64,000 bases of DNA, from positions 23,526 through 87,525 of the forward strand of contig JAILSC010000019.1 of assembly GCA_024697865.1 (NCBI GenBank), read 5' to 3'. Source of the stretch: Candidatus Saccharimonadota bacterium. GTDB lineage: Bacteria; Patescibacteriota; Saccharimonadia; Saccharimonadales; Saccharimonadaceae. This document shows positions 15,955-43,576 of this stretch, piece after piece (the stretch's first letter is position 1; every line of letters begins with the position of its first letter). The notes below the pieces were generated by a model, which was not told where the DNA came from, did no database searches, and saw nothing but the letters and a program-made list of their open reading frames with translations. Both the position numbers and the translations under genes were made by a program.

Positions 15955-16049
15955 CAACAAAAATGGTGCGAGTGGAGGGAGTCGCACCGCAGGTCCGACT
16001 CCCGAACCGAAAGTCTATGCAACAAAAATGGTGCGAGTGGAGGGAGTCG
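15955..16049. repeat. 30-bp direct repeat of the tRNA-Gly 3' end plus trailer, separated by a 35-bp insert (core family 3)
   Basis: CAACAAAAATGGTGCGAGTGGAGGGAGTCG at 15955-15984 and 16020-16049. Confidence 0.9.
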
Positions 16050-16103
16050 AACCCTCATCCCAAGTTTGGAAAACTTGTATACTAACCGCTGTACTACACT
16101 CGC
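16029..16103 (-). tRNA. tRNA-Gly(TCC)
   Basis: Cloverleaf; anticodon arm CAAGT-TTTCCAA-ACTTG; encoded CCA. Confidence 0.93.
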
Positions 16104-16115
16104 AACTTTTTAATC

Positions 16116-16233
16116 TGGGGTGGGATAGCGGGATCGAACCGCCGTTTGCCCCTTGGGACGCTTCGGCGGTTCCAGCCGCAATACGCCACGCTGAAACCAT
16201 TGTGTGGGGTGGGATAGCGGGATCGAACCGCCG
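16116..16233. repeat. 29-bp direct repeat of the tRNA-His 3' end separated by a 60-bp insert (core family 2)
   Basis: TGGGGTGGGATAGCGGGATCGAACCGCCG at 16116-16144 and 16205-16233. Confidence 0.9.
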
Positions 16234-16282
16234 ACCTTCGGGACCACAATCCGACGCTCTAACCATCTGAGCTAATCCCACC
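16205..16282 (-). tRNA. tRNA-His(GTG)
   Basis: Cloverleaf; GTG anticodon; encoded G-1 and C73; CCA. Confidence 0.95.
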
Positions 16283-16312
16283 AGATAAAGCACTCCCCCA
16301 TTATATCATATC

Positions 16313-16714
16313 CTATCGCGAAATACCAGGATTCCGTCGCGCTGGCGGTGGAGTCATTTGTCTAGACGATGCCATTTGGTCATTACTAACATCACCACGA
16401 CCAATACTTCCTGCTTCGCCCCTTCTACTCTCACCGAATCTCTCCCTGATTGCCGCTCGTTGATCAGTGTCACGCGTTGCGTCGTAACTCTTAATTTTGG
16501 CGCCTACGTTGCCCAAGGCATCGTTTACTACTCTGGAATCCTTATATCCTCTTACCGTAGTCCGATTTGTCTCAACTCTTTGCCTCTCCGCAAAACTCTG
16601 CGTCGAAGCCGCTCCCATCTTTCCAGCGCCTTGAGCCTCTGCATAGGCCGATGAATGCAACACGTCCTTGCTTTTATCTTTCATCAATCTAGCTAAGAAC
16701 GGGTTCTTTTCCAT
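16313..16714 (-). CDS. Hypothetical protein
   Basis: 133-aa ORF in an operon-like run with SD AGGAG. Confidence 0.65.
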   Translation of the reverse strand: MEKNPFLARLMKDKSKDVLHSSAYAEAQGAGKMGAASTQSFAERQRVETNRTTVRGYKDSRVVNDALGNVGAKIKSYDATRDTDQRAAIRERFGESRRGEAGSIGRGDVSNDQMASSRQMTPPPARRNPGISR

Positions 16715-16722
16715 TTAACTCC

Positions 16723-17337
16723 TTATTTAGGCAAAAGCAAAAACGCCACCGTCCCTGCTGCTGCCCCTAATATTATTGTTAAAATAATCGCAATAACCAT
16801 TCCTGCATGGGCTTGTTTCTCTGGCTTTTCAATGATAGTTACCGGCTCTTCAGGCTTTGCTTCTTTTACCTCTGGCTTCTTCTCGGGATATACATTTTTT
16901 GCCGATAGCGGGCGTTTAACCACTTTTTCCTGATTCACAAAAGGAGTTTTTGGCGGTTGATAAATCGTTTTCGGGGCTTCTTTTGGTTTGGACTTTTCCA
17001 CTGAGTTTTCCACCGATTTAGCAGGTTTGGCGCTCTTCATACCGATCTTTTGCGCTTTTGCCGCAGCTATCCCAGTTCTACCAGTCGTAAAATGCGCTGC
17101 CCGACTTAAAGGCCGTTTTGGGACATCTGATCTTACAAAACGCGTATTTAAATTCTCTACCGCTCCTAATTTTGGCTTATCCTCACTAGCAAATCCCACC
17201 TTATTCGTAGTTTTAATCTCGGCCTTAACTTGAGGCTTGACGGTTTTTACGGTTTTGACGGTTTTTTCTGACGCTACTCTCTTGGTAGTTTTAATTTGTG
17301 GCCTTGTCGGCACAAAATCCATGTATTGCTTTTTCAT
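16723..17337 (-). CDS. Hypothetical Lys/Pro-rich protein with a C-terminal TM anchor
   Basis: Overlaps the tpiA stop; C-terminal hydrophobic helix. Confidence 0.7.
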   Translation of the reverse strand: MKKQYMDFVPTRPQIKTTKRVASEKTVKTVKTVKPQVKAEIKTTNKVGFASEDKPKLGAVENLNTRFVRSDVPKRPLSRAAHFTTGRTGIAAAKAQKIGMKSAKPAKSVENSVEKSKPKEAPKTIYQPPKTPFVNQEKVVKRPLSAKNVYPEKKPEVKEAKPEEPVTIIEKPEKQAHAGMVIAIILTIILGAAAGTVAFLLLPK

Positions 17338-18104
17338 TCTTTCACTCTTTTAGCCACCTCTATTATATCAGTAAATTCACTCAAAATCAAACTTGCGCCC
17401 CCAATCAGCAGCCCGTTTACCCCTGGCACCGTTAAATATGCTCCCGCATTAGAAGAGCTCACGCTCCCACCAAACAATACTGGCACCGCTTTAGCCGACT
17501 CCGCCCCGTAAATATTCGTCAAAACCTCTCGAATTATCTTCACTGCCTCTGCAATCTCATCAGGACCAGCCAATTTTGCCCCCTTTACCGAAGAAATCGC
17601 CCACACCGGTTCATAGGCTATCATCACTTTATCGATATCGTCGTCCGCCACCTCCGACAATCCGCCAGTTAGCTGATCTCGAATCACGTCCGCTGTCTCA
17701 CCAAAAGCTCGTTCACTTTCCGTCTCGCCAATACATAGAATTGGTCGGATTTTATTCCGAATTGCTGCCGCTATCTTTTTAGCAATCATTTTATCGTTTT
17801 CGCCTAAAATATACCGTCGCTCCGAATGTCCCACAATTGCATAATCGACCAATCCTCTCAGTTGCGAAAAAGAAACTTCTCCCGTAAACGCTCCGTAGTC
17901 TCGGTAAAACGCATTCTGCGCACACAACTTCATCTTATGACGGTCTATTTGCAAAGACAACGGTTGCAAAGCAATGGCTGATGGCGCTACCACCACTTCT
18001 ATACCTCTGTAATTTGATGTTTTTCTCAGTAATTTATGAAGATAGATAGAAGCTTCTCCGACTGTAAAATTTAGCTTCCAATTGCCCACGATATAAGTTT
18101 TCAT
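17334..18104 (-). CDS. tpiA: Triosephosphate isomerase
   Basis: VGNWKLN, GAFTGEVS, VGHSERR, AYEPVWAI, GLLIGGASL. Confidence 0.98.
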   Translation of the reverse strand: MKTYIVGNWKLNFTVGEASIYLHKLLRKTSNYRGIEVVVAPSAIALQPLSLQIDRHKMKLCAQNAFYRDYGAFTGEVSFSQLRGLVDYAIVGHSERRYILGENDKMIAKKIAAAIRNKIRPILCIGETESERAFGETADVIRDQLTGGLSEVADDDIDKVMIAYEPVWAISSVKGAKLAGPDEIAEAVKIIREVLTNIYGAESAKAVPVLFGGSVSSSNAGAYLTVPGVNGLLIGGASLILSEFTDIIEVAKRVKE

Positions 18105-18137
18105 AGAATTATTATAACATGGTATAATCGAAGTATT

Positions 18138-18908
18138 ATGAAAAAAGTTTTAGCATTCGACATAGACCAAACCTTAAACATAGCCAAAACTCCTATCGGC
18201 GACGAAATCGCTGACTTATTGATTGGCTGTTTGGATCACTTTGAAATCTGCCCTATCTCTGGCCAAAAATTCGACCAATTTTTAATTCAGATTGTCAATC
18301 GCCTGCAAGATCGCGGAGTTAAGCCTTCTCAACTCGCTCATCTTCACCTCTTCGTAGCTCAAGGTACTCAATATTATCGCTTTAACACCGAGAAAAACGA
18401 TTGGGAGCAAGTTTACAATTACCCCTTAACCGATGAACAGGTCGCCAAAATCACCGAGACAATGGAAGGCGCCGCTAAAGAACTCGGTTTCTGGGAAGAA
18501 GACAAATTACAGGCCGGCGACGAAATCATCGAGAACCGCCTCTCGCAAGTGACTTTCTCTGCCCTCGGCCAGCACGCCGGCACCGAAGAAAAATATGCCT
18601 GGGATCCAGACTGTAAAAAACGTGAACAAATCGTCGCTCGCTGCAAAGAGCTCGCCCCCGAATTTGATTACGAAATTGGTGGCACCACCTCAATTAACGC
18701 TATCACTCCTGGCATGAATAAAGAATTCGGCATGACTCACATGTTAGAGGAACTCAAAGTCGAAAAATCCGACATTCTTTACTTTGGCGACATGACTCAG
18801 CCTGGTGGTAACGACTACCCAGTTGTCCAAATGGGCATTGACACAATTACCGTGCGCAACCACGAAGACACTGCTTTCGCTCTTCGCGGCATTCTCGGTA
18901 TTCTCTAA
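18138..18908 (+). CDS. HAD-IIB hydrolase, phosphomannomutase (eukaryotic PMM)-like
   Basis: FDIDQTL, IENR..QVTFSALGQ, IGGTTSI, FGDM..PGGNDYP. Confidence 0.85.
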   Translation: MKKVLAFDIDQTLNIAKTPIGDEIADLLIGCLDHFEICPISGQKFDQFLIQIVNRLQDRGVKPSQLAHLHLFVAQGTQYYRFNTEKNDWEQVYNYPLTDEQVAKITETMEGAAKELGFWEEDKLQAGDEIIENRLSQVTFSALGQHAGTEEKYAWDPDCKKREQIVARCKELAPEFDYEIGGTTSINAITPGMNKEFGMTHMLEELKVEKSDILYFGDMTQPGGNDYPVVQMGIDTITVRNHEDTAFALRGILGIL

Positions 18909-18988
18909 TTCATTTACGATTATCCTCAAACCCATCATAATATGCTATAATATGCTTAAGCTAATTTAATTTTGAAAGGTGATACATA

Positions 18989-19729
18989 ATGGATAATAAT
19001 CAAATATCGCAAACCCCAAACCCAGAGCCGGTATTAGAGCCTACGCCGAACCCGATACCAGAACCAACTCCGGAACCAACTCCAGAGCCGACTCCGGAAC
19101 CAACTCCGAAACCCATTCCTACTACTCCGCCCCAAAAGTCCGCCAAAAAACTTACTATCGCAGTAGTCATCTGTCTTATTTTATCAGCGGTTGGCATAGG
19201 CTTAGGTATCTATAACATTATCCAACACAATAATCTTGCAAATTCTTTCGATACCGCAAACATTACTAATGGCACCCAGAATAATTCAGATCAGTCCACT
19301 AACGCTTTTTCAGGCCAAACTACTAGCGCCAACAGTGTAGAGTACAAATGTACTCCTCCTACCAGCACAGACGATATCCTCAGCATCAACATTCAAAGTA
19401 GCCCCGAAGCCAGGTTCCTCATTACTCCTAACCCCGGCGAAATTGATTTCATTAATTACACCACCGATGAAACCGGTGAAAAAGTCGAGTCCAGCACCAT
19501 GGCAACTACTGACACCTCCGAAATCGTCAACTATGCCTATCAAAATACTCTTAACAATTTGGGCGATCCCGACTACGATCAGATCTATTCCACCGGCCCC
19601 GACACTCTTTGGTATATCAGCCTCCAAAGCAACACCAACAACAGTGAATGTATGGTCATCGGCCAAGATAACCCTCCTGCCTGGTTCACTACTCTTGTCG
19701 ACATGCTTGAAGCTAAAAGGAATAGTTAA
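18989..19729 (+). CDS. Hypothetical single-pass membrane protein with an N-terminal (PEPT)n repeat
   Basis: PEPTPEPTPEPTP repeat encoded at about 19020-19120, one TM helix, soluble C-terminal domain. Confidence 0.7.
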   Translation: MDNNQISQTPNPEPVLEPTPNPIPEPTPEPTPEPTPEPTPKPIPTTPPQKSAKKLTIAVVICLILSAVGIGLGIYNIIQHNNLANSFDTANITNGTQNNSDQSTNAFSGQTTSANSVEYKCTPPTSTDDILSINIQSSPEARFLITPNPGEIDFINYTTDETGEKVESSTMATTDTSEIVNYAYQNTLNNLGDPDYDQIYSTGPDTLWYISLQSNTNNSECMVIGQDNPPAWFTTLVDMLEAKRNS

Positions 19730-19732
19730 TTT

Positions 19733-21547
19733 ATGAACATCCTTATCGTGGGCAACATTCTTAAGGATGTCTATCTAAACCTTGACTCTCGTACCGAGAA
19801 ATTCGAAACCGACAAGAACGAGACCAAATGGCTAGATCTAGCCTTTAACGCCTCCGAACATCACTTTTTTCATCGTGAATCCAGCTATGGTGGAGCTGCA
19901 GTTACTTTAGAAGTTTTACAAAAACTCGGCCTAGATGCGGCCATATCCAACTCACACCTTAGTTTTCAACACGAAAATAATCTTAATAACCTTACCACTG
20001 CTTATCGTTATATTCTTATTGCCGATGAAGGAGTCACCTATCTCGCCCCCAGTAAATTCACTACCGCCACCTTCAACGCCCCTAATTTTCCAGTCGATTA
20101 TCTTTATCTAGATCGTTCCGCCGAAATCACCGCCACTACTGCTGGTCAAATCACAAATTTCCTCAAAAACTCCCCTAGCACTAAATTAATCATTTATGTT
20201 CGTAATTTTCATAATCATCAGCTCAATCAACTCCTCCCTCAGGCGGAACTAATCTTTACTGAAACTTCTAATGCTCCTGAATTACAGAACCTCAACCCCG
20301 CCAAAATCGTCTATCTCTCTGACAATAAATTAACCTACGCCAACATCGCTGAGCCCATCTCGGCCAATCGCACCAACGTCCTCACTCATCTTTCTCTTTA
20401 TTCTATCGTTTCTGCCACCATTTTGGGGAGCTTCATTCTTGGCTACTCAGTAGAAGATAGCCTCAAGCTCGCTCGCATCAATTTAGAAAATTCCAAGCTC
20501 AACTCCGTGCTTACTCTCACTGAGCTTCAAGAATTAGCCACTCATACCATCATAAAGAACAGTCTAGAATTAATCGCTAGAAACCTCGTTTTACATCCCA
20601 AAGGCATTCTTGCCGCTGACGAATCTGGCGGCAGTATTCATAAAAAATTTGCTAGTCTAAATATCCCAGACACCTATGACAATCGTCGTGACTATCGTAA
20701 TATCTTTTTTACTACTCCAGGCCTCGAACAACATGTCAACGGCGTCATCCTTTTTGACGAAACCGCTCGCCAGCAAGCCGATAATGGCCAAAATTTCGTA
20801 GATTTTCTCACTGGTAAGCGCATTATTCCTGGCATTAAAGTCGATCAAGGACTCGAAAAATTCCAAGCCTCCGAAGAAACTTACACTAAGGGCCTAGTTG
20901 GCTTAGAAAAACGTCTTGCAGAGTATTATCAAATGGGCCTACGTTTTGCCAAGTGGCGCGCCGCTTTCGAAATTCGCACCAACGATAATGGCGATATCCT
21001 CACCCCTACCGATTACGCTATTCACGAGAATTGCCAAATCCTCGCCGAATACGCTAAAGCCTGCCAAACAGCCGGGCTCGTCCCCATCGTCGAACCAGAG
21101 CTAGTTTACAATGGTAATTATTCTATCGAGCAATCCGCCGTCACTACTGCTAAAATTCTAGATGCTCTCTTTGCCGAATTGAACAATCAAGATATCAATC
21201 TCAAAGCCTGCATTCTCAAAGTCAATATGGTTCTCGCTGGCAAACAGCAAGGGAATCAATCTACCCCAGAAGAAGTTGGTGAAAAAACTGCCGAAATTCT
21301 CAAAAACCACGTCCCCGCAGAATTAGCTGGCATAGTATTCCTCTCTGGTGGCCAAACTCCCGAGCAGGCCACCGACAATCTTGCTGCCATCATTAAACAC
21401 GGTCCTTATCCTTGGCCTGTCACCTTTTCTTTTGCTCGTGCCCTCCAAGACCCCGCACTCTTCACTTGGGCAGGAGACAACAATAACGCCGAAAAAGCCC
21501 GCCAAGCTTTCCTTGACAGGCTTATCGCTAATACTAAAGTATTGTAA
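19733..21547 (+). CDS. Fusion: degenerate PfkB/ribokinase-like domain plus class I fructose-bisphosphate aldolase
   Basis: C-terminal half: KGILAADES, GVILFDET, PGIKVD.G, FAKWRA, VPIVEPE, FLSGGQ, TFSFARALQ. N-terminal half: VGN...D.Y and GG.A pattern of PfkB. Confidence 0.85.
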   Translation: MNILIVGNILKDVYLNLDSRTEKFETDKNETKWLDLAFNASEHHFFHRESSYGGAAVTLEVLQKLGLDAAISNSHLSFQHENNLNNLTTAYRYILIADEGVTYLAPSKFTTATFNAPNFPVDYLYLDRSAEITATTAGQITNFLKNSPSTKLIIYVRNFHNHQLNQLLPQAELIFTETSNAPELQNLNPAKIVYLSDNKLTYANIAEPISANRTNVLTHLSLYSIVSATILGSFILGYSVEDSLKLARINLENSKLNSVLTLTELQELATHTIIKNSLELIARNLVLHPKGILAADESGGSIHKKFASLNIPDTYDNRRDYRNIFFTTPGLEQHVNGVILFDETARQQADNGQNFVDFLTGKRIIPGIKVDQGLEKFQASEETYTKGLVGLEKRLAEYYQMGLRFAKWRAAFEIRTNDNGDILTPTDYAIHENCQILAEYAKACQTAGLVPIVEPELVYNGNYSIEQSAVTTAKILDALFAELNNQDINLKACILKVNMVLAGKQQGNQSTPEEVGEKTAEILKNHVPAELAGIVFLSGGQTPEQATDNLAAIIKHGPYPWPVTFSFARALQDPALFTWAGDNNNAEKARQAFLDRLIANTKVL

Positions 21548-22252
21548 TTATTCAGCCTTTTCGGCGTCAGCTGCTTCTTCTGGTTTAGTTTCTTCCGCAG
21601 TTTCTTCTGCTCCAGCTCCTGCTTCCCCTTCAGCCGCGGCTTCAGCTTCTGCCGCCGTCTCTTCCGCTGCGCGCTTCTCAGCTTCTGCAGCCGGATCGTA
21701 AAGCGAAGCTACAATTTGTTCTTGGTCTAATTCTTTATCTGCAAATTCCACGCCTTCTGGTAACTTAATATCCGCAATCGTCAATTTATCCTCGATGGCC
21801 TCTAACTTAGAAGCGTCAATTGTTAATTCTTTCGGTAAATCAGCAGGCTTAGCTTTAACCTCAAGCTCAGTCACGGTTTGGTTATAAGCCAAATGATAAG
21901 TCTTAGCTGCTTCCGAAGCCCCAAATTCAACAATCATTACTGGAGTAGTTGCCGTCACGGCTGCTCTAGCTGAAATCGCTTTAAATTCCACATTTAGAAT
22001 CTTTCGTGAAACTGGATCAACTTGCACATTCTTAACGATAGCTAACTGCTTCTTGCCCGCAATGTCTAAATCTATCGGCGAATGATAACCAGCCTTGCCT
22101 AGAACTTTCTCAGTCGCGACATATTCGCTAGCCGCCAACATTGGCTCCTTTATCCCATAAATTACTGAAGGGATCATCCCCTTGTCTCTCAAATCTTTTA
22201 ATTTCTTGCCAGTCAGCTCTCGCTTCTCTAGCGTCAACTTATATTCAGCCAT
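21548..22252 (-). CDS. rplY: 50S ribosomal protein L25 / general stress protein Ctc
   Basis: LRDKGMIPSVIYG, VQVDPV.R.ILNVEF, P.DLP.ELTID.S.L, acidic tail. Confidence 0.92.
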   Translation of the reverse strand: MAEYKLTLEKRELTGKKLKDLRDKGMIPSVIYGIKEPMLAASEYVATEKVLGKAGYHSPIDLDIAGKKQLAIVKNVQVDPVSRKILNVEFKAISARAAVTATTPVMIVEFGASEAAKTYHLAYNQTVTELEVKAKPADLPKELTIDASKLEAIEDKLTIADIKLPEGVEFADKELDQEQIVASLYDPAAEAEKRAAEETAAEAEAAAEGEAGAGAEETAEETKPEEAADAEKAE

Positions 22253-22301
22253 AAATAATTCCTTTCTAGTTCTTTTATTTTATCACTTTTCCCTATTTTT
22301 T

Positions 22302-22736
22302 TCAAGAAACGCGCTTTACCTTCACCATCGCCGGCCTAAGTACTTCCCCTTCATAATAATAGCCCGGTCTCAGAGTTTCAGCCACTACCTCCTGCTCGCC
22401 TTCACCTTCCGCCATTACCGCATCATGTATATCCGGATTAAATTCCGCCCCTTCTTTAGAGGCAATCTTGGCTAATTCCAATTCCTTCAAGGTTTTAGCT
22501 AAAGATTTTTCTAGCGGCTTCAATTCCGCATAACTATCTATCGCTCGATCTAAATCGTCTAATAGCGGTAATACTTTAGAAATCGTGGCAAATTTTACCG
22601 CTTTTTTCTCTTGAGTTTTTTGTAATTCTATTTGCTTCCGAAAATTTTCAAAATCTGCCCGTGTCCGCTGTAAATCCGCAGTTAATTCTGCTATTTTTGC
22701 TTCTGTTTCTGGCGTGTTCGTAGCTTTCTCCTTCAT
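22302..22736 (-). CDS. grpE: Nucleotide exchange factor GrpE
   Basis: R..ADFENFRK, LLDDLDRA, FNPDIHDAV, GY...GEVLRPAMVKV. Confidence 0.96.
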   Translation of the reverse strand: MKEKATNTPETEAKIAELTADLQRTRADFENFRKQIELQKTQEKKAVKFATISKVLPLLDDLDRAIDSYAELKPLEKSLAKTLKELELAKIASKEGAEFNPDIHDAVMAEGEGEQEVVAETLRPGYYYEGEVLRPAMVKVKRVS

Positions 22737-22745
22737 TAATCCTCC

Positions 22746-31649: not shown

Positions 31650-31726
31650 GGGGATGTAGCTCAGCTGGTTAGAGCATGCGTCTTATACACGCAGGGTCCT
31701 AGGTTCGAGTCCTAGCATCCCTACCA
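31650..31726 (+). tRNA. tRNA with TAT anticodon (nominally Ile-UAU) on a Val-like body
   Basis: Cloverleaf; anticodon arm TGCGT-CTTATAC-ACGCA; CCA. Confidence 0.88.
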
Positions 31727-36499: not shown

Positions 36500-36502
36500 T
36501 AA

Positions 36503-37252
36503 TTACTCTTCCGGCTTTCTTAATTTATAATAAATCGACGGCGCAAATCTAATTCCTGCTAATGCCTTCTGTGCCTTGTCTTCCATTTTTACTAAATTCT
36601 GTGTACCGAATATCTTTTTTAGACCTCTACTGCGGAAATTCGACACCGATAATACCTTTTCTTGCTTAAATCCAACTTTGTCAAAAATCTCTTCTACATA
36701 TTTTGGATGATAATTGTAAAATCCATCCTTTGATATTTCTTTATAGTTAGCTACTTTACGATCAAACGGATTTACCTTGCTTCGCCCAGTCACATATCGC
36801 GCAATTTTTGGCAAAGTCCGTTTGTTTGCAACCTCAATTACTGCTACGCCACCTGGTTTCAAAACTCTATATAATTCAGCGATGGCCTTATCTAAATGTT
36901 TCAAATGATGAGTCACTCGTATCATCATCAATCCATCTAATTCATTATCCTTAAATGGTAACTTATAGATATCTCCGGCTTTAGTTTCGATTTTATCACC
37001 GTAAATTTCTTTTGCCTGTTTCAGCTCAGACTTCGAATAATCAAAAATATATACTTTTCGAGCTCGCTTCAAATATTCACTAGCTAGTCTGCCATAGCCC
37101 CCACCAATATCCGCAAATTTTTCCATTCTTTTCGGCAACAATTTTCGTATTGCCATTCGGTCTGCCTGATCTTCATACTCCCGATCTGCCTTTTCCCAGA
37201 ATTCGGTTTTGTAGTCATAGCCGTTATAATCTGATACTATTTTTTCACTCAT
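36503..37252 (-). CDS. Class I SAM-dependent methyltransferase
   Basis: FADIGGGYGR, GDIYKLPFKD, L.RVLKPGG. Confidence 0.9.
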   Translation of the reverse strand: MSEKIVSDYNGYDYKTEFWEKADREYEDQADRMAIRKLLPKRMEKFADIGGGYGRLASEYLKRARKVYIFDYSKSELKQAKEIYGDKIETKAGDIYKLPFKDNELDGLMMIRVTHHLKHLDKAIAELYRVLKPGGVAVIEVANKRTLPKIARYVTGRSKVNPFDRKVANYKEISKDGFYNYHPKYVEEIFDKVGFKQEKVLSVSNFRSRGLKKIFGTQNLVKMEDKAQKALAGIRFAPSIYYKLRKPEE

Positions 37253-37260
37253 GACACCTA

Positions 37261-38883
37261 TTATATCACACGCGACACTTCTTCTAAAGTAGTTTCCCCT
37301 CTCAATGCCGCTAATACCCCTTTCTGTTCTAAGGTTAACATGCCATTCTTCTTTGCAACTCTCTCAATCGCCGACGCATCCACATCTGCTACGTCTCCTC
37401 GGATAAACGCCTGGATATCTTCGCCCACTATTAATTGCTCCATGATTACCGTCCGTCCACTATAACCAAACGGATCCGCATCGCTAGTTACCGCATCATA
37501 TAAAGTAATCTCGTTCAGATTCAAGCCTATTAATTTATTTTCCGGTACACCGTTCAATACTTTTCTTATGTAATTGATTTCTGCCTCTGTCGCTGGTCGC
37601 GGCTTTTTAGAGTCGGCCAACTTTCTCACTAATCTCTGTGCCACCACCAAACGAATCGAACTTGAGAATATCGGATTTACACCAATTAAATCAATCATTC
37701 TAGAAAACGCAGCCGCAGTTGAGTTCGCGTGAAAACTCGATAACACTAAATGCCCAGTAATCGAAGCCTGAATTGCGGTCTTAGCTGTATCTGCGTCTCG
37801 AATCTCGCCCACCATTACTACATCTGGATCTAAACGTAATACCGATCTCAACCCTTCCGCAAATGAACCACCATCATTAGTGTGGATTGGAATTTGCGAA
37901 ATTCCCGTAATGCCATATTCAATCGGGTCTTCCAAGGTAATAATTTTTCGATCTGAAGTGTTCAACGCGTTCAACATTGAATACAGAGTCGTAGATTTAC
38001 CTGAACCCGTCGGCCCCACCATCAACACTAATCCTCGTGGATGCGAAATCACTTCATCAATTTCAGCGCGTTCTTCTTTTGAAAGCCCCAAAAGATCCAA
38101 ATTAAGCAGCGACTCGTCAAAATTAAACAACCTTAGTACCGCGTCTTGTCCATACATTGTCGGAATTGTTTCTACACGAATATTCAGAATATGGGTTGCT
38201 CCATCTCGATGAATTTCTTTCTGCATATGCCCCGACTGTGGCTTATTTGACGCCATCGAAACATTCGCTCGCGAAGATAATTCCCCCATAAATATTCGGT
38301 AACGGTCCTTATCGATATTTGCTACCGGATGCAAAATTCCATCCACCCGCATCCGAATTCGAATTTCTCCTCGCATATTTTCAATATGGATATCGGAAGC
38401 TCCCAACTTATCTGCTTGATCAATTAGAAAATCAAAGACGCTCTCCGTCGATACCATATTCAAGGTTCGTGAAACGCTGGCAATCGTTTCCGAATCCCCT
38501 TCGCCTGCAATCTTGATGTCATCATATTTTACTACTTTCGGCGGATCGTATCTCAACATAAATACTTTATATGCCGAATTGGAAATCAAAAAGAAATCTG
38601 CTTTCTCACCTTCGTCTGTATATTCTTGTCGCATTCGTTCAATCACAGATCTTGGCGTCTGGCTAGTCACCATAAACTGATAATGTTCTTCGCCTCCACC
38701 CTGTTGCAACGGGATGATATGATCTCTATGCATTTGTGCTATATCTAGCAAATCTGGCACTAAGGCGATTTCGTTCTCGAAGCTTCGGGTATCTAAATAC
38801 GGTAAACTCAGGATTCTTGCTCGATCCGCCGTCGCTCTCTCTTCGTTATCACGCCTTTTCAACTGAATTTCATTTTCATCCAT
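37261..38883 (-). CDS. pilB: GspE/PilB-family type IV pilus assembly ATPase
   Basis: ASDIHIE, RMRVDGIL, GPTGSGKSTTLY, TLEDPIEY, LRLDPDVVMVGEIRD, TGHLV.SSFHAN. Confidence 0.9.
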   Translation of the reverse strand: MDENEIQLKRRDNEERATADRARILSLPYLDTRSFENEIALVPDLLDIAQMHRDHIIPLQQGGGEEHYQFMVTSQTPRSVIERMRQEYTDEGEKADFFLISNSAYKVFMLRYDPPKVVKYDDIKIAGEGDSETIASVSRTLNMVSTESVFDFLIDQADKLGASDIHIENMRGEIRIRMRVDGILHPVANIDKDRYRIFMGELSSRANVSMASNKPQSGHMQKEIHRDGATHILNIRVETIPTMYGQDAVLRLFNFDESLLNLDLLGLSKEERAEIDEVISHPRGLVLMVGPTGSGKSTTLYSMLNALNTSDRKIITLEDPIEYGITGISQIPIHTNDGGSFAEGLRSVLRLDPDVVMVGEIRDADTAKTAIQASITGHLVLSSFHANSTAAAFSRMIDLIGVNPIFSSSIRLVVAQRLVRKLADSKKPRPATEAEINYIRKVLNGVPENKLIGLNLNEITLYDAVTSDADPFGYSGRTVIMEQLIVGEDIQAFIRGDVADVDASAIERVAKKNGMLTLEQKGVLAALRGETTLEEVSRVI

Positions 38884-38917
38884 ACCATAATTATAGCATA
38901 AGTGTTATAATATGGTT

Positions 38918-39298
38918 ATGGCAATTGCTGAAATGTTTTTGTGGTGGTACGCTCATGGTTGGTCCGTCTTTATTCAAAAAATCAAAATCGGCCTCACCAA
39001 TATCACTGATTTTTTCTCTATGAGCGATCTAATTCGGACTCTCTTTCAGCCTTTCCGTCAAATCTCCGCTGATTCCGCCACTATTGACTCTTCAATCGAT
39101 CTTAAATTTCACATGTTTATTGACCGTCTCGTTTCTCGCATTGTAGGGTTTTGTTCTCGTTTAATTCTTCTAGTTGCCGGAACTATAATTATTATCGTCG
39201 GCGGTCTATTCAGTCTTGTTCTAATTATTCTCTGGCCTTTTATCCCCCTTATTCCCATCGTTGGTATTATACTAACCATTATTGGAGTTACCCTATGA
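38918..39298 (+). CDS. Hypothetical membrane protein coupled to the Clp-like ATPase
   Basis: Hydrophobic C-terminal hairpin; ATG 38918 lies 6 nt after TGTTATAAT. Confidence 0.7.
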   Translation: MAIAEMFLWWYAHGWSVFIQKIKIGLTNITDFFSMSDLIRTLFQPFRQISADSATIDSSIDLKFHMFIDRLVSRIVGFCSRLILLVAGTIIIIVGGLFSLVLIILWPFIPLIPIVGIILTIIGVTL

Positions 39299-41679
39299 AT
39301 ACTACTTTCGATCCTAAAAATCCTCGCGTCCATCAGGCTCATGAGAAACGCATTTTCAACCATCCTCCCGTTATCATTCTCAATGTTTTTCTTTTCTCGG
39401 CTTTGCTGATTGGCGGCATTGCTCTCCTCATTTTTAAAATGTCCATCGGCTGGACCCTGATCGGCTTTTCTATTCTTCCGCTCATGTTAATTTTCTGGAT
39501 CAAAAATGCTCTCGCTGAGATCCCTCTTGGCAAATCAGATGATTTTACCGACCTTCTCTCTGAAGATTTGTTGCTGAACCTCAAAGCCCAACTTACTCCG
39601 GCCGAACTAGTTAAAGTCCCCGCCAAAACTCATAGCGGCATGTTTCTCATGGCTCGTTTTGGTCTCACCATTCCGTTCTTTGATCAAATTGCTAGCTACC
39701 TACCCACCTCTACCGAGCCAATCTACGCTTCCGCCATTAAAATCCGCGACCGCACCAACTCCAAAGCCATCACCGGCGCCGTACTTGCCGTCGCCATCAT
39801 CGAAAATCTTCCCAGATTCGAACAAGTCCTCAGTCACTCCAAATTAACAATTGCCGATCTCGATCAAGGTATTATTTGGTTCAATCACCTCAATGGCATC
39901 GTTCGCGGCAACAAAAAACACCCTCACACTGGTGGCGTTGCTCGGGATTTTGCCTTTGGCTTTACTCCTACTTTACAAAGATTCGCCATTAATCTCTCTA
40001 CTCGCTATACCGGCTCAGCCAATAAAATCCTACAAGCCGAAAACACCGAAATCATCAACAAAATTATTGATATCTTCTCTCACCCCGGTCGACAAAATGT
40101 TGCCCTCATTGGGCCCTACGGCTCTGGTCGTTCCAGCCTAGTTCAAGCTTTCGCTGAAACTCTTATGAACGCCGACACCAAAATCCCCACCAACTTAAAA
40201 TATCGTCAAATTTACTCCCTTGACGCCCCCAGCCTTATTTCTGCCACCAAAAATCCAAGTGAAATTGAATATTTGATGATCAGAATCTTCAACGAAATCT
40301 ATTCCGCTAAAAATATCATTCTTTGTCTTGATAACGCTCATCTCTTCTTTGAGGAAGGCCCTGGCTCAGTTGATATTTCTAACCTTCTTACCCCCATTCT
40401 TGAAGCCGGACGCATCCGAATTATTATGATTATGGACGATCAAAAATTCCTCGAAATCTCTGCTAAAAATTCTGCCCTAGCTAATTCCCTAAATCGTATC
40501 GTTGTTCATCCTGCCGACCGCGAAGAAACTCTCAAAATTCTCATGGACCGAATCCCTATCCTTGAACATCAAAAAGGCGTAGTTTATACTTATCGCGCTC
40601 TAACTGAAGCCTATCGCCTAAGCGAACAATATATTCATGATGTTGAAATGCCAGGCAAAGCCAAATTACTCCTAGAGTCCGCTGCCAGTTTTGCTGATCG
40701 TGGTCTGGTCACTGCCGATTCCGTTCAAACTGCCGTCGAAAAATCATATGGCGTCAAAGTCAAAGTCGCCGATCAGGCCGAAGACAAAGACAAACTCTTA
40801 AATCTTGAGCAGTTAATTCATGATCGTATGATTGACCAAGAGGAAGCCGTCTCTGCCGTCGCCAATGCCTTGCGTCGCGCCGGTGCTGGCGTCAGGAATC
40901 AATCTCGCCCTATTGGGACTTTCCTCTTCCTTGGTCCTACCGGTGTAGGCAAAACCGAGCTCGCTAAGACCCTTTCCGAAGTTTATTTCAACGGTGAAAA
41001 CAACATCATTCGTCTCGATATGAACGAATTTGTTTCCGCTGACGACGTTAATCGTCTCATTCGTGACGGCGCCACCGACCCTCTCAGCCTTACGGCTCAA
41101 GTCATGAAACAACCCTTCGCCGTGGTATTGCTCGACGAAATCGAAAAAGCCCATCCCTCCGTCCTTACTACTCTCTTACAAGTACTCGATGAGGGCATTC
41201 TTCGTGATGAAAAAAATCGCGAAGTTTCTTTCCGCGACACCATCATCATCGCCACGTCTAACGCTGGCGCTAACGAAATCCGTGAGAAAATCACTGCCGG
41301 CGAACAAATCAATAATTTCAAAGAATCATTTATCGAACAGCTTATCACCTCCAATCAGTTCAAACCCGAATTCTTAAACCGTTTCGACGAAGTCTGTCTT
41401 TTTAAACCACTCTCTAAAGAAGATCTACTCGGCGTACTTGATCTCATTATTGCTTCCACCAACAAGACTTTGGAGCCTCAGAAAATCTCCGTTCAACTTA
41501 CCCCTGAAGCCAAACAACTCTTAATTAACAAAGGCTATGATCCTAAAATGGGAGCTCGCCCCATGCGTCGCATTGTGCAAAAAACCGTTGAAAACATCGT
41601 TGCTGCTTCCATTCTTTCCGGCACCGCTCAGCCCGGCTCTACCCTCATTATTACCGAAAACGAAATTAATAGTATTTAA
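39295..41679 (+). CDS. ClpA/ClpB-like AAA+ ATPase with N-terminal TM helices
   Basis: D2: RPIGTFLFLGPTGVGKTELAK, LLDEIEKAH, FKPEFLNRFD, GARPMRR. D1 degenerate. Start MNTTF at 39295. Confidence 0.88.
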   Translation: MNTTFDPKNPRVHQAHEKRIFNHPPVIILNVFLFSALLIGGIALLIFKMSIGWTLIGFSILPLMLIFWIKNALAEIPLGKSDDFTDLLSEDLLLNLKAQLTPAELVKVPAKTHSGMFLMARFGLTIPFFDQIASYLPTSTEPIYASAIKIRDRTNSKAITGAVLAVAIIENLPRFEQVLSHSKLTIADLDQGIIWFNHLNGIVRGNKKHPHTGGVARDFAFGFTPTLQRFAINLSTRYTGSANKILQAENTEIINKIIDIFSHPGRQNVALIGPYGSGRSSLVQAFAETLMNADTKIPTNLKYRQIYSLDAPSLISATKNPSEIEYLMIRIFNEIYSAKNIILCLDNAHLFFEEGPGSVDISNLLTPILEAGRIRIIMIMDDQKFLEISAKNSALANSLNRIVVHPADREETLKILMDRIPILEHQKGVVYTYRALTEAYRLSEQYIHDVEMPGKAKLLLESAASFADRGLVTADSVQTAVEKSYGVKVKVADQAEDKDKLLNLEQLIHDRMIDQEEAVSAVANALRRAGAGVRNQSRPIGTFLFLGPTGVGKTELAKTLSEVYFNGENNIIRLDMNEFVSADDVNRLIRDGATDPLSLTAQVMKQPFAVVLLDEIEKAHPSVLTTLLQVLDEGILRDEKNREVSFRDTIIIATSNAGANEIREKITAGEQINNFKESFIEQLITSNQFKPEFLNRFDEVCLFKPLSKEDLLGVLDLIIASTNKTLEPQKISVQLTPEAKQLLINKGYDPKMGARPMRRIVQKTVENIVAASILSGTAQPGSTLIITENEINSI

Positions 41680-43312
41680 TACTTTTCAGGAATTTAGTAA
41701 ATAGTGGGTGCACCGACAGCGGTCGTGATTTAAATTCCGGATGCGCTTGTGTCGCTACAAAGAATTTACACTTAGGTGCTTCGACGAATTCTACTAGTTT
41801 TCCATTTGGCGAAGTCCCCGACACGATCAAACCGCCTTTTTCTATTTCTGGCAAAAACTTCTGGTTCACCTCATAGCGATGACGATGCCGCTCCACCGTC
41901 CGTACATCTCCATTTTTCAAAACCTCCGTTCCGTCAATATAATGTTCTTTCTTTAAAGCCTCCACATAAGCCTCGGCTGTCCCCGTTCCTTTTTTCAATA
42001 CTGCCTCATAATCACCCAGCCGCATTGTTCCGCCAGTCGATTCTTTTCCTTTTTGGCCTTCCATAATATAAATCACGTTATTGTCATCTTTTTCGCTGGC
42101 CCCAAACTCTTCTGAGTTCGCTTTCTTGACTCCTCCAAGTCTTGCCGCCGCAATACAAGCCGTTTGCATGCCTAAGCAAAGTCCCAAATATGGCTTATCA
42201 TTCTCTAACGCATACGTAGCAGCTTTAATTTTACCTTCTACGCCTCGTGTGCCAAACCCACCCGGCACTACAATTCCGTCCACATTATCTAGATCTTTTT
42301 TGGTTACTTTTTCTGCATTCAGCCATTTAATCTCTAGATTTACTTCCGCCCAAGCCGCTGCCGCCTTCAAAGCCTCCGTCACGCACATATAAGTATCGTC
42401 ATTTCCGACATACTTTGCTACCAACCCCACCTTTATAGTCTTATCATGTTTAGCTGCTCGTCTCTTCGAAAACTTTTTCCATTCTCGCATATCTGGTTCC
42501 GTTTCATCATCCACAAAGTCATTTAGAATCGGTAATACTCCACTTTTCAACACGTTAAACGGGACATCATACACACTATCGATATCTGGCAAATTTAATA
42601 CTGCTTCTCCCGGAATGCCTGAAAAAGCTGCAATCTTTTCGCAAATTGCTCTCGGGCATGGTTCTTCTGTTCGTACACAAACGATATCCGGAATAATCCC
42701 GAAACCTCTTAGATCTTTCAACGCATTTTGCGCCGGTTTAGTTTTCAATTCGTTCGAAGTATGAATAAATGGCACGTACACTACCGAGACATACAGACAA
42801 TTTCGTCGCCCCACCTTGTTAGCAAATAATCGAATCGCCTCGACAAACGGCAAACCTTCATAATCGCCTATTGTTCCTCCAATTTCTACAATGTGAATAT
42901 CACTATCTTCAGAAGCCTTCTCGATCTTCTCGCAGACTAGTCCAGTAAAGTGCGGGACTAACTGCACCGTCTTACCATGAAATCCACCCGACCGTTCTCT
43001 TTCAATCAATTCTTTATAAATTGACCCCGACAAAGTAATTGAATATTTACTAGTCTCAAAATCCAAAAATCTCTCATAGTGCCCAAGGTCAAGATCGGTT
43101 TCCACTCCATCGTGCGTCACATAACATTCACCGTGCTCTACTGGATTTAAAAGCCCCGCATCCACATTCAGATACGGGTCACATTTTTGCATCGTCACCT
43201 TAAAGCCCTTAGCTTTTAAGATTGCCCCCATAGATGCAGCAGTAATTCCTTTGCCTACACCTGACAATACTCCCCCCGTCACAAAGATATATTTACATTT
43301 TTTATTTTTCAT
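41666..43312 (-). CDS. pyrG: CTP synthase
   Basis: GGVLSGVGKG, DPYLNVD, EIGGTIGD, KTKPAQ, GLCLGMQ, RHRHRYE, QAHPE; ATG 43312 follows SD GGAGG. Confidence 0.98.
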   Translation of the reverse strand: MKNKKCKYIFVTGGVLSGVGKGITAASMGAILKAKGFKVTMQKCDPYLNVDAGLLNPVEHGECYVTHDGVETDLDLGHYERFLDFETSKYSITLSGSIYKELIERERSGGFHGKTVQLVPHFTGLVCEKIEKASEDSDIHIVEIGGTIGDYEGLPFVEAIRLFANKVGRRNCLYVSVVYVPFIHTSNELKTKPAQNALKDLRGFGIIPDIVCVRTEEPCPRAICEKIAAFSGIPGEAVLNLPDIDSVYDVPFNVLKSGVLPILNDFVDDETEPDMREWKKFSKRRAAKHDKTIKVGLVAKYVGNDDTYMCVTEALKAAAAWAEVNLEIKWLNAEKVTKKDLDNVDGIVVPGGFGTRGVEGKIKAATYALENDKPYLGLCLGMQTACIAAARLGGVKKANSEEFGASEKDDNNVIYIMEGQKGKESTGGTMRLGDYEAVLKKGTGTAEAYVEALKKEHYIDGTEVLKNGDVRTVERHRHRYEVNQKFLPEIEKGGLIVSGTSPNGKLVEFVEAPKCKFFVATQAHPEFKSRPLSVHPLFTKFLKSIKYY

Positions 43313-43479
43313 TTTTTCGGGCACCTCCTCCGCCCACCAGTTATGTTTATGACCTATTTATATCCATTTTACCACAAAAAACACAATCATAAACATAAAA
43401 AATGGCGAATAACAGGATATTCATCCTAGTTCTTCTCTTCAGATTACCAAATCCAAAGCAAGCTTTGGATTTACTAACC

Positions 43480-43576
43480 TGGCGGAAAGGACAGGATTCG
43501 CACCGAAGGTCCGAATCCCCAACTAAAAAAGTCTACTGGAGACGACGGATTAACTTGGCGGAAAGGACAGGATTCG
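43480..43576. repeat. 21-bp direct repeat of the tRNA-Ser 3' end separated by a 55-bp insert (core family 3)
   Basis: TGGCGGAAAGGACAGGATTCG at 43480-43500 and 43556-43576. Confidence 0.9.

What the first reader, a model, noticed from the sequence alone, without database searches (positions are those of the whole stretch)
15955..43576. Core family 3: tRNA-Gly and tRNA-Ser both carry a 3'-end duplication breaking in the T-loop, plus the same mini-insert
Seen (+ strand): Gly has ...GAGGGAGTCG|CACCGCAGGTC|CGACTCCC-GAACCGAAAGTCTA (15975-16018); Ser has ...ACAGGATTCG|CACCGAAGGTC|CGAATCCC-CAACTAAAAAAGTCTA (43491-43535). The 11-nt core CACCG(C/A)AGGTC and the AAAGTCTA tail are shared by loci 27 kb apart. 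The 7-8 nt after the core are the reverse complement of each tRNA's own T-arm sequence, so they differ between the loci. Both duplications stop at the same T-loop position (TCG|). Established: many tyrosine integrases cross over within tRNA T-loops and duplicate the tRNA 3' end. Inference: these are minimal 35-55 bp integrated units or excision scars of one T-loop-targeting element that is not specific for a single tRNA.
Basis: partly seen in the sequence, partly recalled or inferred. Interest (0 to 1): 0.68.

Follow-up and report, generated by a model that had tools for sequence, protein, structure and literature searches.

The report
Palindrome-linked tRNA tail repeats
In this tiny parasitic bacterium (Saccharibacteria) many tRNA genes are followed by short, unstable DNA repeat units: a hairpin modelled on the tRNA's T arm, then a copy of the tRNA's last 21 bases. 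This is a lineage-wide repeat family, and I found no sign that it is the scar of an integrating virus.

Summary
tRNA-Gly(UCC) and tRNA-Ser(UGA) are each followed by a spacer, a shared core and an exact copy of tRNA positions 56-76.

The core is the centre of a 27-nt imperfect palindrome built from the universal T-arm motif. Its left half, TCGGACC, is an inverted GGTTCGA. Its right half, GGTGCGA, is GGTTCGA with T55>G.

The same core follows tRNAs of at least 10 amino-acid identities in more than 37 Saccharibacteria species genomes. It always breaks at C56 and often forms perfect tandem arrays with a 60-77 nt period. The arm next to the core co-varies with each tRNA.

Units are gained and lost precisely. 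A close relative has an empty Gly site, and near-identical strains lack the Ser units.

No integrase, transposase or reverse transcriptase lies in the window or recurs near the units. Neither core occurs in viral contigs.

Best reading (confidence about 0.5): a DNA-level repeat family that is spread, refreshed and deleted by slippage or template switching between the real T arm and the palindrome arm. It is not an integrase scar.

The closest precedent is the E. coli tyrT 178-bp repeats, which also begin in the T loop.

A recombinase-driven mini-element or a tRNA-tail-mimicking RNA is not excluded.

The parts
16029..16103 (-). tRNA-Gly(UCC) gene, with CCA encoded
   Evidence: ARAGORN; Rfam 69.8 bits
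16004..16028 (-). Gly unit spacer. The native trailer TTTTTGTTG is at 16020-16028, followed by CATAGACTTTCGGTTC.
   Evidence: Sequence. The empty site in relative L110 shows what is native.
15977..16003 (.). Gly imperfect palindrome: 12-nt arms around a 3-nt centre. RNA sense: GGGAGTCGGACC-TGC-GGTGCGACTCCC. It holds the 17-nt core at 15982-15998, with a G.G mismatch at the T55 position.
   Evidence: the repeat finder pair I5; fold gives -22 kcal/mol; pattern search
15955..15984 (-). Direct copy of tRNA-Gly positions 56-76 (15964-15984) plus 9 nt of its trailer (15955-15963)
   Evidence: the repeat finder D1, spacing 65
43556..43641 (-). tRNA-Ser(UGA) gene
43521..43555 (-). Ser unit spacer. It carries a weak terminator-like hairpin (GTCTCCAGTAGAC) followed by T6 and AGTT. 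It belongs to the 'CCTCCAG...TTTTTTAGTTGGGG' linker family shared by units behind several other tRNAs.
43494..43518 (.). Ser imperfect palindrome: 11-nt arms around a 3-nt centre. It holds the 17-nt core at 43498-43514.
   Evidence: the repeat finder pair I6
43480..43500 (-). Exact direct copy of tRNA-Ser positions 56-76
43403..43479 (-). Older, decayed second unit behind tRNA-Ser. It has a perfect hairpin at 43449-43473, a minihelix-like hairpin, and a degenerate tail copy ATCCTGTTATTCGCCA at 43403-43418. The native trailer TTTTTTATG follows.
   Evidence: The whole stretch 43403-43555 is absent in strains of runs X1 and X3.
16116..16204 (-). Unit of another junction family behind tRNA-His. 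A 60-nt insert ends in GAAGCGTCCCAAGGGGCAAAC and is followed by a 29-nt copy of the tRNA-His T arm and 3' end. Overall it looks like a tRNA-His pseudogene that lacks the anticodon loop.
   Evidence: It is precisely absent in run X3.
46736..46801 (-). Unit behind tRNA-Asp. It has the same filler as the His unit. It also has a degenerate inverted copy and a direct copy (19 nt with trailer) of the tRNA-Asp 3' end.

Best explanation
The two sites belong to a repeat family found in Saccharibacteria (the Nanosyncoccus-type gut and rumen lineage). The units sit directly downstream of tRNA genes.

A unit has three parts:
1. A spacer, often carrying an intrinsic terminator.
2. An imperfect palindrome built on the universal T-arm motif.
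3. A direct copy of the tRNA's last 21 nt. This copy is at the same time the outer right arm of the palindrome.

I read the family as a DNA-level phenomenon. The palindrome's right half (GGTGCGAnnCC) is near-identical to the real T arm (GGTTCGAnnCC) a few tens of bases upstream. Replication slippage, unequal exchange or polymerase template switching between these two sequences would duplicate or delete the interval between them. This accounts for:
- the boundary fixed at C56, the first base after the T55/G mismatch;
- the copy staying identical to the gene;
- perfect tandem arrays;
- the newest unit lying next to the gene while distal copies decay;
- precise loss of units.

The 17-nt core and the universal T arm also serve as short landing homologies. 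Through them a unit, or part of one, can be copied behind another tRNA gene. The arm that pairs with the tRNA-specific bases is re-matched afterwards, by template-switch correction or by selection for the hairpin.

Shown here: the anatomy, distribution, arrays, co-variation, chimaeras, precise presence/absence and the lack of a linked recombinase.

Inferred: slippage or template switching as the motor, and the absence of any essential function.
For: Anatomy:
- The core is an inverted plus a direct T-arm motif.
- The direct copy starts 21 nt from the 3' end in all 74 units where the start could be located. It is 21/21 identical in 51 of 79 units.

Family:
- The GTDB scan gave 95 loci and 112 matches.
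- 63 loci have the core 18-400 nt downstream of a same-strand tRNA of 10 amino-acid identities.
- The roughly 22 remaining hits, mostly in high-GC genomes, fit the chance expectation of about 35.

Arrays and extent of duplication:
- Ten loci carry 2-4 perfect tandem units with a 60-77 nt period.
- In L058, L072, L081 and L093 the duplicated segment runs on through the trailer and terminator. That is a plain tandem duplication with a 17-20 nt junction.

Empty sites:
- The closest relative, L110, has tRNA-Gly followed directly by the sequence that follows the copy in the window.
- Strains with identical flanks lack the 153-nt Ser block (runs X1 and X3) or the 89-nt His unit (run X3). In each case the junction lies in the direct repeat.

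Chimaeras:
- tRNA-Gln(CUG) is followed by a unit carrying the Gln(UUG) tail (L028, L031, L061).
- An Asp-type arm sits at Asn units, partly re-matched in L082.
- A Tyr-type arm sits at Ser units (L027, L109).

Arm co-variation:
- The pair at N59 is UA in 27, CG in 12 and GC in 10 hairpins.
- 88% of cells are paired, and 0 of 500 shuffles reached the observed values.

Position relative to termination signals:
- 53 of 69 distinct spacers carry a T run of 5 or more between the CCA and the hairpin. Much of the unit therefore lies beyond a termination signal.

No recombinase:
- None in the window, none recurrent nearby, and no hit in viral contigs.

Precedents:
- The E. coli tyrT-tyrV 178-nt tandem repeats each start at A58 of the T loop.
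- Template switching is a documented source of reverse-complement repeats and of multi-base 'compensatory' changes (PMC8794818).
Against: - Slippage and T arms are universal, yet this abundance is clade-specific. In a locus set retrieved for carrying the core, 72 of 119 tRNA genes have a tail copy. That suggests a clade-specific factor I did not find.
- The non-Watson-Crick pair at the T55 position is kept: G.G, with T.G in L109 and A.G in the Asp second units. The 3-bp inner stem co-varies (ACC/GGT to ATC/GAT). The loop reads UNCG. These features look like selection on a folded strand or on a protein site. They do not look like neutral junk. Most copies were ascertained by the exact core, so its conservation is overstated.
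- I cannot spell out how a unit first reaches a naive tRNA gene while gaining that gene's own tail.
- Arms match tRNA-specific bases better than simple copying from a donor predicts.
- The polymorphism evidence rests on assembled contigs (Logan, k=31), not on reads.
- No direct measurement of slippage exists.
Confidence: 0.5

Rival explanations
1. Mini integrative elements or att-site remnants. A site-specific recombinase, encoded elsewhere in the genome or on an unsampled element, crosses over in the T loop. The unit is essentially a bare attP: palindrome plus tRNA tail plus terminator. It integrates, forms tandem copies and excises precisely.
For: - The duplicated segment starts in the T loop and restores the tRNA 3' end. 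The proximal copy is followed by a terminator. Both are as in tRNA-targeting islands (established knowledge; Islander database, PMC4383910).
- An imperfect palindrome with a central mismatch resembles recombinase core sites and folded-hairpin att sites.
- Presence/absence is precise.
- Tandem arrays occur.
- One unit (L049) is split inside the core by a 1.8-kb insert flanked by an 11-nt repeat.
Against: - No integrase, resolvase or transposase is present among the window ORFs scanned or recurs within 3 kb of units.
- No kb-scale island bounded by the core was found.
- Viral contigs give no hit.
- A 55-77 bp double-stranded circle is not a plausible substrate.
- The repeat length varies from 21 to about 60 nt.
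- The palindrome centre lies upstream of the identity block, and the partners share no sequence there. That contradicts the overlap identity usually needed by tyrosine recombinases.
- The L049 insert carries an S51 peptidase and no recombinase.
Confidence: 0.2
2. A functional RNA module. Read-through or separately promoted transcription yields a hairpin with a UNCG-type loop followed by the tRNA's acceptor 3' strand and CCA. It could act as a processing or stability signal for the upstream tRNA. It could also mimic or decoy a tRNA 3' end, for example for RNase P, the CCA-adding enzyme or exonucleases, in the manner of an external guide sequence.
For: - The hairpin is maintained by co-variation, including wobble pairs on the sense strand.
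- The variable loop base is the N of UNCG.
- The Arg(CCG) unit folds into a roughly 17-bp helix that leaves only ACCA-3' free, using U.G pairs.
- Minihelix-like units (acceptor-like stem plus T-like hairpin plus CCA) occur behind other tRNAs.
- L109 has a TATAAT box just upstream of the hairpin.
- Persistence in a very small genome argues for some use.
- In E. coli an RNA (RttR) is annotated over the comparable tyrT repeats.
Against: - Most units lie behind a T run or terminator.
- Units are absent in near-identical strains and in the closest relative, so they are dispensable.
- The tail can belong to a different tRNA than the one upstream, and it often decays while the hairpin stays intact.
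- A.C mismatches occur about as often as expected for a DNA palindrome.
- There is no Rfam match.
- No usable RNA evidence exists; only assembled contigs were available.
Confidence: 0.2
3. Chance similarity or assembly artefact.
For: The 11-nt core with one mismatch allowed is not enriched on its own (2 found, 1.46 expected).
Against: - Exact 21-29 nt duplications lie next to four tRNA genes in the window.
- The same architecture appears in dozens of independent assemblies from different studies.
Confidence: 0.01

Closest known systems
E. coli tyrT-tyrV distal repeats (178-bp units; rtT/RttR RNA, tpr)
   Same: Tandem repeats lie directly downstream of a tRNA gene. Each begins with a copy of the tRNA 3' end that starts inside the T loop (A58, 19 nt to CCA) and continues into the trailer. 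I checked this on NC_000913. They are classically attributed to unequal recombination (from memory).
   Different: - A single locus and a single tRNA.
- A 178-nt unit.
- No palindrome at the junction and no arm complementary to the tRNA.
- Not a multi-tRNA, genome-wide family.
attL/attR tRNA fragments left by integrase-mobilised genomic islands and prophages (T-loop sublocation class; Islander, PMC4383910)
   Same: The displaced partial tRNA 3' end starts in the T loop. The functional 3' end is restored. Tandem integrations are known.
   Different: - Here the 'insert' is 34-60 bp and carries no integrase or cargo.
- The identity block varies in length.
- A T-arm-derived palindrome sits at the junction.
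- Tested and not met: an integrase within or beside the unit.
Small palindromic intergenic repeats (REP/BIME, Correia/NEMIS, Rickettsia RPE; MITE-like)
   Same: Short, hairpin-forming, multi-copy and intergenic. They are often next to terminators, with variable presence between strains.
   Different: - Those have a constant sequence independent of the neighbouring gene, and defined ends or terminal inverted repeats (TIRs).
- Here one arm of the hairpin is the neighbouring tRNA's own sequence.
- Here a tRNA tail copy always follows.
- No terminal inverted repeats and no fixed-length target duplication.
Template-switch mutations that create and repair hairpins (PMC8794818); inverted-plus-direct duplication signatures of replication template switching (PMC11790251)
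   Same: A reverse-complement copy of adjacent sequence lies next to a direct duplication. Arms are 'corrected' by several bases at once. Microhomology sits at the junctions.
   Different: - Those are one-off mutations.
- Here a shared 17-nt core and shared spacers show a propagating family, not independent events.
Folded-hairpin recombination sites (integron attC; CTX-phage attP used by XerCD)
   Same: An imperfect hairpin with conserved unpaired or bulged bases and a variable loop. Arrays of sites occur.
   Different: - No IntI or Xer link was tested or found.
- No R-box motifs.
- No cassettes; a single possible insertion, in L049.
tRNA acceptor-T minihelices and RNase P external guide sequences
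   Same: A hairpin followed by the acceptor 3' strand and NCCA. Some units, of other families, are true minihelices.
   Different: - In core-3 units the acceptor strand has no partner.
- The helix is 12-13 nt away from the CCA.
- No expression data.

Membership tests
Integrase-mediated tRNA-gene island (attL/attR) | Direct repeats equal to a 3' segment of the tRNA flank the inserted DNA | tested here: met
   Copies of 21-30 nt (Gly, Ser), 29 nt (His) and 19 nt (Asp)
Integrase-mediated tRNA-gene island (attL/attR) | A tyrosine or serine integrase gene inside or next to the insert | tested here: not met
   The inserts are 34-60 bp. No such Pfam family appears in the window. None appears among the families shared by 3 or more of 148 neighbouring ORFs.
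Integrase-mediated tRNA-gene island (attL/attR) | A free or phage/plasmid-borne attP copy | tested here: not met
   No exact match to either core in IMG/VR. Plasmids and unsampled episomes were not searched.
MITE / transposon | Terminal inverted repeats at both ends of the inserted piece | tested here: not met
   The left end of the spacer is not conserved and is not complementary to the right end GGTG
MITE / transposon / casposon | Target-site duplication of fixed length | tested here: not met
   The duplicated segment is 21 nt in many units and 30-31 nt at Gly. It reaches about 56-62 nt in L058, L072, L081 and L093.
Intrinsic (Rho-independent) terminator | A GC-rich hairpin immediately followed by a U run | tested here: not met
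   The palindrome is followed by 12-13 nt of acceptor strand and CCA before any T run. The scan calls no terminator at it. A separate true terminator often lies in the spacer.
tRNA gene or tRNA pseudogene | Cloverleaf detectable by ARAGORN or the Rfam tRNA model | tested here: not met
   Only the 7 true tRNAs are called. The His unit resembles a tRNA-His lacking its anticodon loop, but by eye only.
CRISPR array | Identical repeats separated by unique spacers | tested here: not met
   Whole units, spacer included, are identical within an array
Tandem tRNA-tail repeats of the E. coli tyrT type | Head-to-tail units downstream of a tRNA gene, each starting with a T-loop-to-CCA copy of that tRNA | tested here: met
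   Arrays of 2-4 units in 10 loci, and a single unit in the window. The E. coli comparison is.
Conserved structured RNA | Base pairs kept through compensatory changes | tested here: inconclusive
   Co-variation is strong. However, one arm is the tRNA itself, and DNA-level template switching gives the same pattern. No transcript data.

The most novel reading that the evidence does not exclude
The units are a new kind of self-propagating element that uses the universal T arm of tRNA genes as its landing pad. One possibility is non-autonomous hairpin DNA, moved between tRNA genes by an unrecognised hairpin- or T-loop-specific recombinase or nuclease of Saccharibacteria, comparable to attC sites without a known integrase. 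The other is a family of small RNAs that carry a genuine tRNA 3' tail (acceptor strand plus CCA) behind a conserved UNCG hairpin and act on tRNA processing or as decoys.
Probability: 0.2. Interest if true: 0.85.

Novelty: new variant of a known kind. Interest (0 to 1): 0.6.

Why it matters
If the family is what it appears to be, up to half of the tRNA genes in a clade of ultra-small, genome-reduced bacteria carry an unstable appendage built from their own T arm.

- It is a natural system for studying short-homology slippage and template switching at tRNA genes.
- It is a source of strain-level structural variation. It will break short-read assemblies and mislead island finders that look for tRNA fragment repeats.
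- It is a warning that 'tRNA 3' fragment downstream of a tRNA gene' does not by itself mean an integrase was at work.
- If instead a dedicated enzyme or an RNA function lies behind it, that would be a new mobile-element or tRNA-mimic class in the Candidate Phyla Radiation (CPR), where very little such biology is known.

Tried and rejected
- RNA evidence. RNA runs held only about 10% of the words. They exist only as assembled contigs of related tRNA-Ser genes, so no ends or co-transcription could be read.
- Metagenome scan. The scan for two tRNA-Ser tail copies 50-80 nt apart returned a single locus, L109, so I got no unbiased sample of junction types.
- Viral contigs. No hit for either core.
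- GIY-YIG lead. A 1.7-kb islet in L055 carries a GIY-YIG protein between a unit and a third tail copy. The protein has no homologue in any other fetched locus, so I dropped it as a general factor.
- L049 lead. The 1.8-kb insert inside a core carries an S51 peptidase and two unknown ORFs but no recombinase. It is a single case.
- Retroviral-type primer-binding-site or RT origin. The copy does end at CCA in many units. However, in others it runs on into the trailer and terminator, and the G.G pair cannot arise by copying.
- De novo fold-back at each locus. Rejected because the same derived core and the same spacer family occur behind unrelated tRNAs.
- 'All tail copies are preceded by a complementary arm'. 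This holds for core-3 and for some other junctions, but only 5 of 27 other junctions pass a strict test.
- Xer/dif resemblance (GGTGCG). This is memory only and was not tested.
- Literature searches found no description of these units.
Full report
WHAT IS THERE

The window is chromosomal DNA of a Saccharibacteria (TM7, CPR) bacterium. Its CTP synthase is 82-100% identical to proteins that their sources name as Candidatus Saccharibacteria. The neighbouring genes are housekeeping: pyrG, ftsA, map, adk, aspS, polA, recA, truB, dnaK and rpoD. Seven tRNA genes are present, each with its own extended -10 promoter and an encoded CCA.

In the RNA sense (minus strand), tRNA-Gly(UCC) is followed by TTTTTGTTG-CATAGACTTTCGGTTC-GGGAGTCG-GACCTGCGGTG. 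An exact copy of its positions 56-76 comes next, plus the same nine trailer bases.

tRNA-Ser(UGA) is followed by a 35-nt spacer, then GGGGATTCG-GACCTTCGGTG, then an exact copy of its positions 56-76.

WHAT THE CORE IS

The shared block is 17 nt: TCGGACCTNCGGTGCGA.
- Its left half is the reverse complement of the universal T-arm motif GGTTCGA, with one change.
- Its right half is GGTTCGA with T55 replaced by G.

Together with the tRNA-specific bases on either side, this makes a 25-27-nt imperfect palindrome. It has 11-12-nt arms, one G.G mismatch and a 3-nt centre. It folds as a stable hairpin.

The 'duplication that stops at TCG|' is thus the outer right arm of a palindrome. The copy appears to begin at C56 because that is the first base after the single difference from a real T arm.

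IT IS A FAMILY

tRNA-His and tRNA-Asp in the window also carry tail copies (29 and 19 nt), behind a different shared filler, GAGCGTCCCAAGGGGCAAAC.

One scan of the species-representative genomes of GTDB (the prokaryotic genome taxonomy collection) for the core plus CGANTC gave 95 loci and 112 matches.
- In 63 loci the core lies 18-400 nt downstream of a same-strand tRNA gene.
- Ten more low-GC loci have the tRNA off the fetched stretch, or decayed.
- All of these are Saccharibacteria-type genomes from rumen, gut or mouth, from more than 37 assemblies.
- About 22 hits, mostly in high-GC genomes and none with tRNA context, fit the roughly 35 expected by chance.

The tRNAs concerned are Arg (CCU, CCG, UCG), Asn, Ser (CGA, GCU, UGA), Gln (UUG, CUG), Asp, Leu, Lys, Glu (CUC, UUC), Gly and Tyr.

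In all 74 units where the start could be placed, the copy starts 21 nt from the tRNA 3' end. In 51 of 79 units it is identical over all 21 nt.

Spacers fall into families. One of them reads xGCCTCCAGxGGCx-TTTTTT-AGTT-GGGGAT. It contains a good intrinsic terminator and is shared by units behind Gln, Arg, Lys, Glu and Ser tRNAs. The units are therefore related by descent and did not arise independently.

Ten loci hold perfect tandem arrays of 2-4 units with periods of 60-77 nt. A 94-nt contig at about five times the flanking depth shows an array elsewhere in a strain whose flanks are identical to the window.

Among 119 non-redundant tRNA genes in the fetched Saccharibacteria loci, 72 have a copy of their last 12 nt within 450 nt downstream. 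This set is enriched by the way the loci were found. It includes other junction types:
- long-loop variants of the same hairpin, in which the inner stem co-varies from ACC/GGT to ATC/GAT;
- a TTCTTCGAA type;
- minihelix-like units;
- the His type.

THE ARM CO-VARIES WITH THE tRNA

In 55 distinct hairpins, 88% of cells are paired. The pair opposite tRNA position 59 is U-A in 27, C-G in 12 and G-C in 10. No shuffle out of 500 reaches the observed pairing or co-variation.

There are informative exceptions:
- Asn units carry an Asp-type arm, GCGAGAC, of which only AGAC pairs. In L082 it has become CAGAC.
- Two Ser units (L027, L109) carry a Tyr-type arm with a C.A mismatch.
- tRNA-Gln(CUG) in L028, L031 and L061 is followed by a unit whose tail is that of tRNA-Gln(UUG).

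So units, or parts of them, have moved between tRNA loci, and the arms were re-matched afterwards.

UNITS COME AND GO PRECISELY

At the orthologous Gly locus:
- the closest relative, L110, has an empty site whose downstream sequence aligns with what follows the copy in the window;
- L111 has a minihelix-type unit;
- L113 is empty;
- the more distant L086 and L020 have core-3 units with a related spacer.

At the Ser locus, relatives carry different hairpin variants and one or two units.

Contigs of public runs with flanks identical to the window show further variation:
- tRNA-Ser is joined directly to its native trailer, without the 153-nt two-unit block. This is seen in runs X1 and X3, at depths 16 and 25, equal to the flanks.
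- tRNA-His is found without its 89-nt unit in run X3. The junction lies inside the 29-nt repeat.

The units are therefore dispensable and turn over between strains.

In several loci the repeated segment runs past the CCA, through the trailer and terminator. What is left as 'insert' is then only the 17-20-nt left arm plus core. This is the shape of a tandem duplication, not of an inserted element with ends.

NO RECOMBINASE

- No integrase, transposase, resolvase or reverse transcriptase is present among the larger ORFs of the window that I scanned (48 ORFs).
- None appears among the families shared by three or more of 148 ORFs within 3 kb of units in about 45 loci. The commonest neighbours are ArgRS, IF-2, TsaD, GTPases and a SPOUT methyltransferase.
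- A search for distant tail copies found only one 1.7-kb islet, in L055, which holds a GIY-YIG protein found nowhere else.
- One unit, in L049, is split by 1.8 kb without a recombinase.
- Neither core occurs in 2.9 million viral contigs.

MECHANISM

The simplest account of all this is at the DNA level. The real T arm (GGTTCGAnnCC) and the palindrome's right arm (GGTGCGAnnCC) are direct repeats 40-60 nt apart, and they flank a hairpin. That is the classical setting for RecA-independent slippage.

Duplication of the interval yields a new unit whose tail is a fresh copy of the gene's own 3' end. Deletion removes units. Repetition gives arrays, with decayed copies lying distally.

The longer homology lies 3' of position 55, so junctions keep G55 and appear fixed at C56.

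Copying of a unit behind another tRNA, and chimaeric units, follow from template switching through the 17-nt core and the universal T arm. Template switching is also a documented way to create reverse-complement repeats and to restore several stem positions at once (PMC8794818).

What I cannot explain on this basis:
- why the clade is so rich in such units;
- why the non-Watson-Crick pair at position 55 and a UNCG-type loop are kept.

These points keep two rivals alive. One is an unrecognised recombinase or nuclease acting on the palindrome or T loop (confidence 0.2). The other is an RNA role for the hairpin plus tRNA tail (confidence 0.2). Against the RNA role, 53 of 69 spacers put a T run between the tRNA and the hairpin, tails can be heterologous or decayed, and units are dispensable.

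COMPARISON WITH WHAT IS KNOWN

The closest precedent is the E. coli tyrT-tyrV locus. On NC_000913 I confirmed three 178-nt tandem units downstream of tyrV. Each begins with the last 19 nt of tRNA-Tyr, starting at A58 in the T loop.

The Saccharibacteria units differ in three ways. They are short, they are linked to a T-arm palindrome, and they are spread over many tRNA genes and species.

They fail the tests for an integrase island, a MITE, a terminator, a tRNA pseudogene and a CRISPR array (see the membership table). Four literature searches found no description of them.

VERDICT

It is probably wrong about integrases and scars.
- This is a new variant of a known kind, the partial tRNA-tail repeat. 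It is of moderate to good interest, with about one chance in five that a new element or RNA class lies behind it.

Noticed in passing
window 16116-16204 (minus strand): The unit behind tRNA-His looks like a tandem tRNA-His pseudogene. It has a near-matching 5' acceptor strand, GAGCGTC as in the true gene and an intact T arm and 3' end. The anticodon loop is missing. It is conserved in L110 and L113, absent in L086, and precisely absent in run X3.
   Followed up: partly
window 46736-46801 (minus strand): The tRNA-Asp unit shares the 20-nt filler GAGCGTCCCAAGGGGCAAAC with the His unit 30 kb away. It also contains a degenerate inverted copy of the tRNA-Asp 3' end plus trailer (18 nt, 78% complementary). 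In relative L001 the Asp gene is inverted and has a plain terminator and no unit.
   Followed up: partly
window 43403-43479: A second, decayed unit lies behind tRNA-Ser. It has a perfect 11-bp hairpin (43449-43473) and a minihelix-like tail copy. This part differs strongly between strains that are 99% identical in pyrG (window versus L004).
   Followed up: partly
window 31650-31726: There is a tRNA-Ile gene with anticodon UAU, which is unusual for bacteria. It is also present in the relatives L001 and L004.
   Followed up: no
window 1-64000: GC skew is strongly and uniformly negative on the plus strand (-0.10 to -0.39). All four unit-bearing tRNA genes lie on the minus (G-rich) strand, and the two plus-strand tRNAs have no unit. 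Over all fetched loci, tail copies are commoner when the sense strand is G-rich (57/87 versus 9/25; odds ratio 3.4, p = 0.011). The sample was selected for unit-bearing loci.
   Followed up: partly
L049 640-2520: A unit behind tRNA-Asn is interrupted after TCGGAC by 1.8 kb. The insert holds an S51 peptidase and two unknown ORFs and is flanked by the 11-nt repeat AGACATCGGAC. The tail copy beyond it is cut to 10 nt.
   Followed up: partly
L055 3920-5660: A 1.7-kb islet encodes a GIY-YIG-domain protein (283 aa) and a 140-aa protein. It lies between a core-3 unit of tRNA-Arg(UCG) and a third 16-nt copy of that tRNA's end.
   Followed up: partly
L084 and L105 (tRNA-Gly(CCC)): This tRNA has GGTCCGA in its T arm, with C where U55 is nearly universal. 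The left half of the core (TCGGACC) is the exact reverse complement of that motif. This may hint at the origin of the core.
   Followed up: no
L056, tRNA called 'tRNA-???' by ARAGORN: This is a tRNA-Gln(UUG)-like gene with one T missing from the anticodon loop, so it has a 6-nt loop. It may be a pseudogene or a sequencing error. It still carries a core-3 unit.
   Followed up: no
L109 60-100: In this two-unit array behind tRNA-Ser, the spacer has a TATAAT box about 20 nt upstream of the hairpin. The core also has T in place of the mismatched G. The hairpin and tail might be transcribed on their own here.
   Followed up: no
window 55072-55878 and 4821-5537: The window encodes a zeta-toxin-family protein and, at 4821-5537, TruB, the enzyme that makes pseudouridine 55 in the T loop. 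No link to the units was shown.
   Followed up: no
L095 200-340: A core-3 unit with an intact tRNA-Leu tail lies behind a sequence that no longer folds as a tRNA. Its proximal T arm is rearranged. The upstream gene, not the copy, has decayed here.
   Followed up: no
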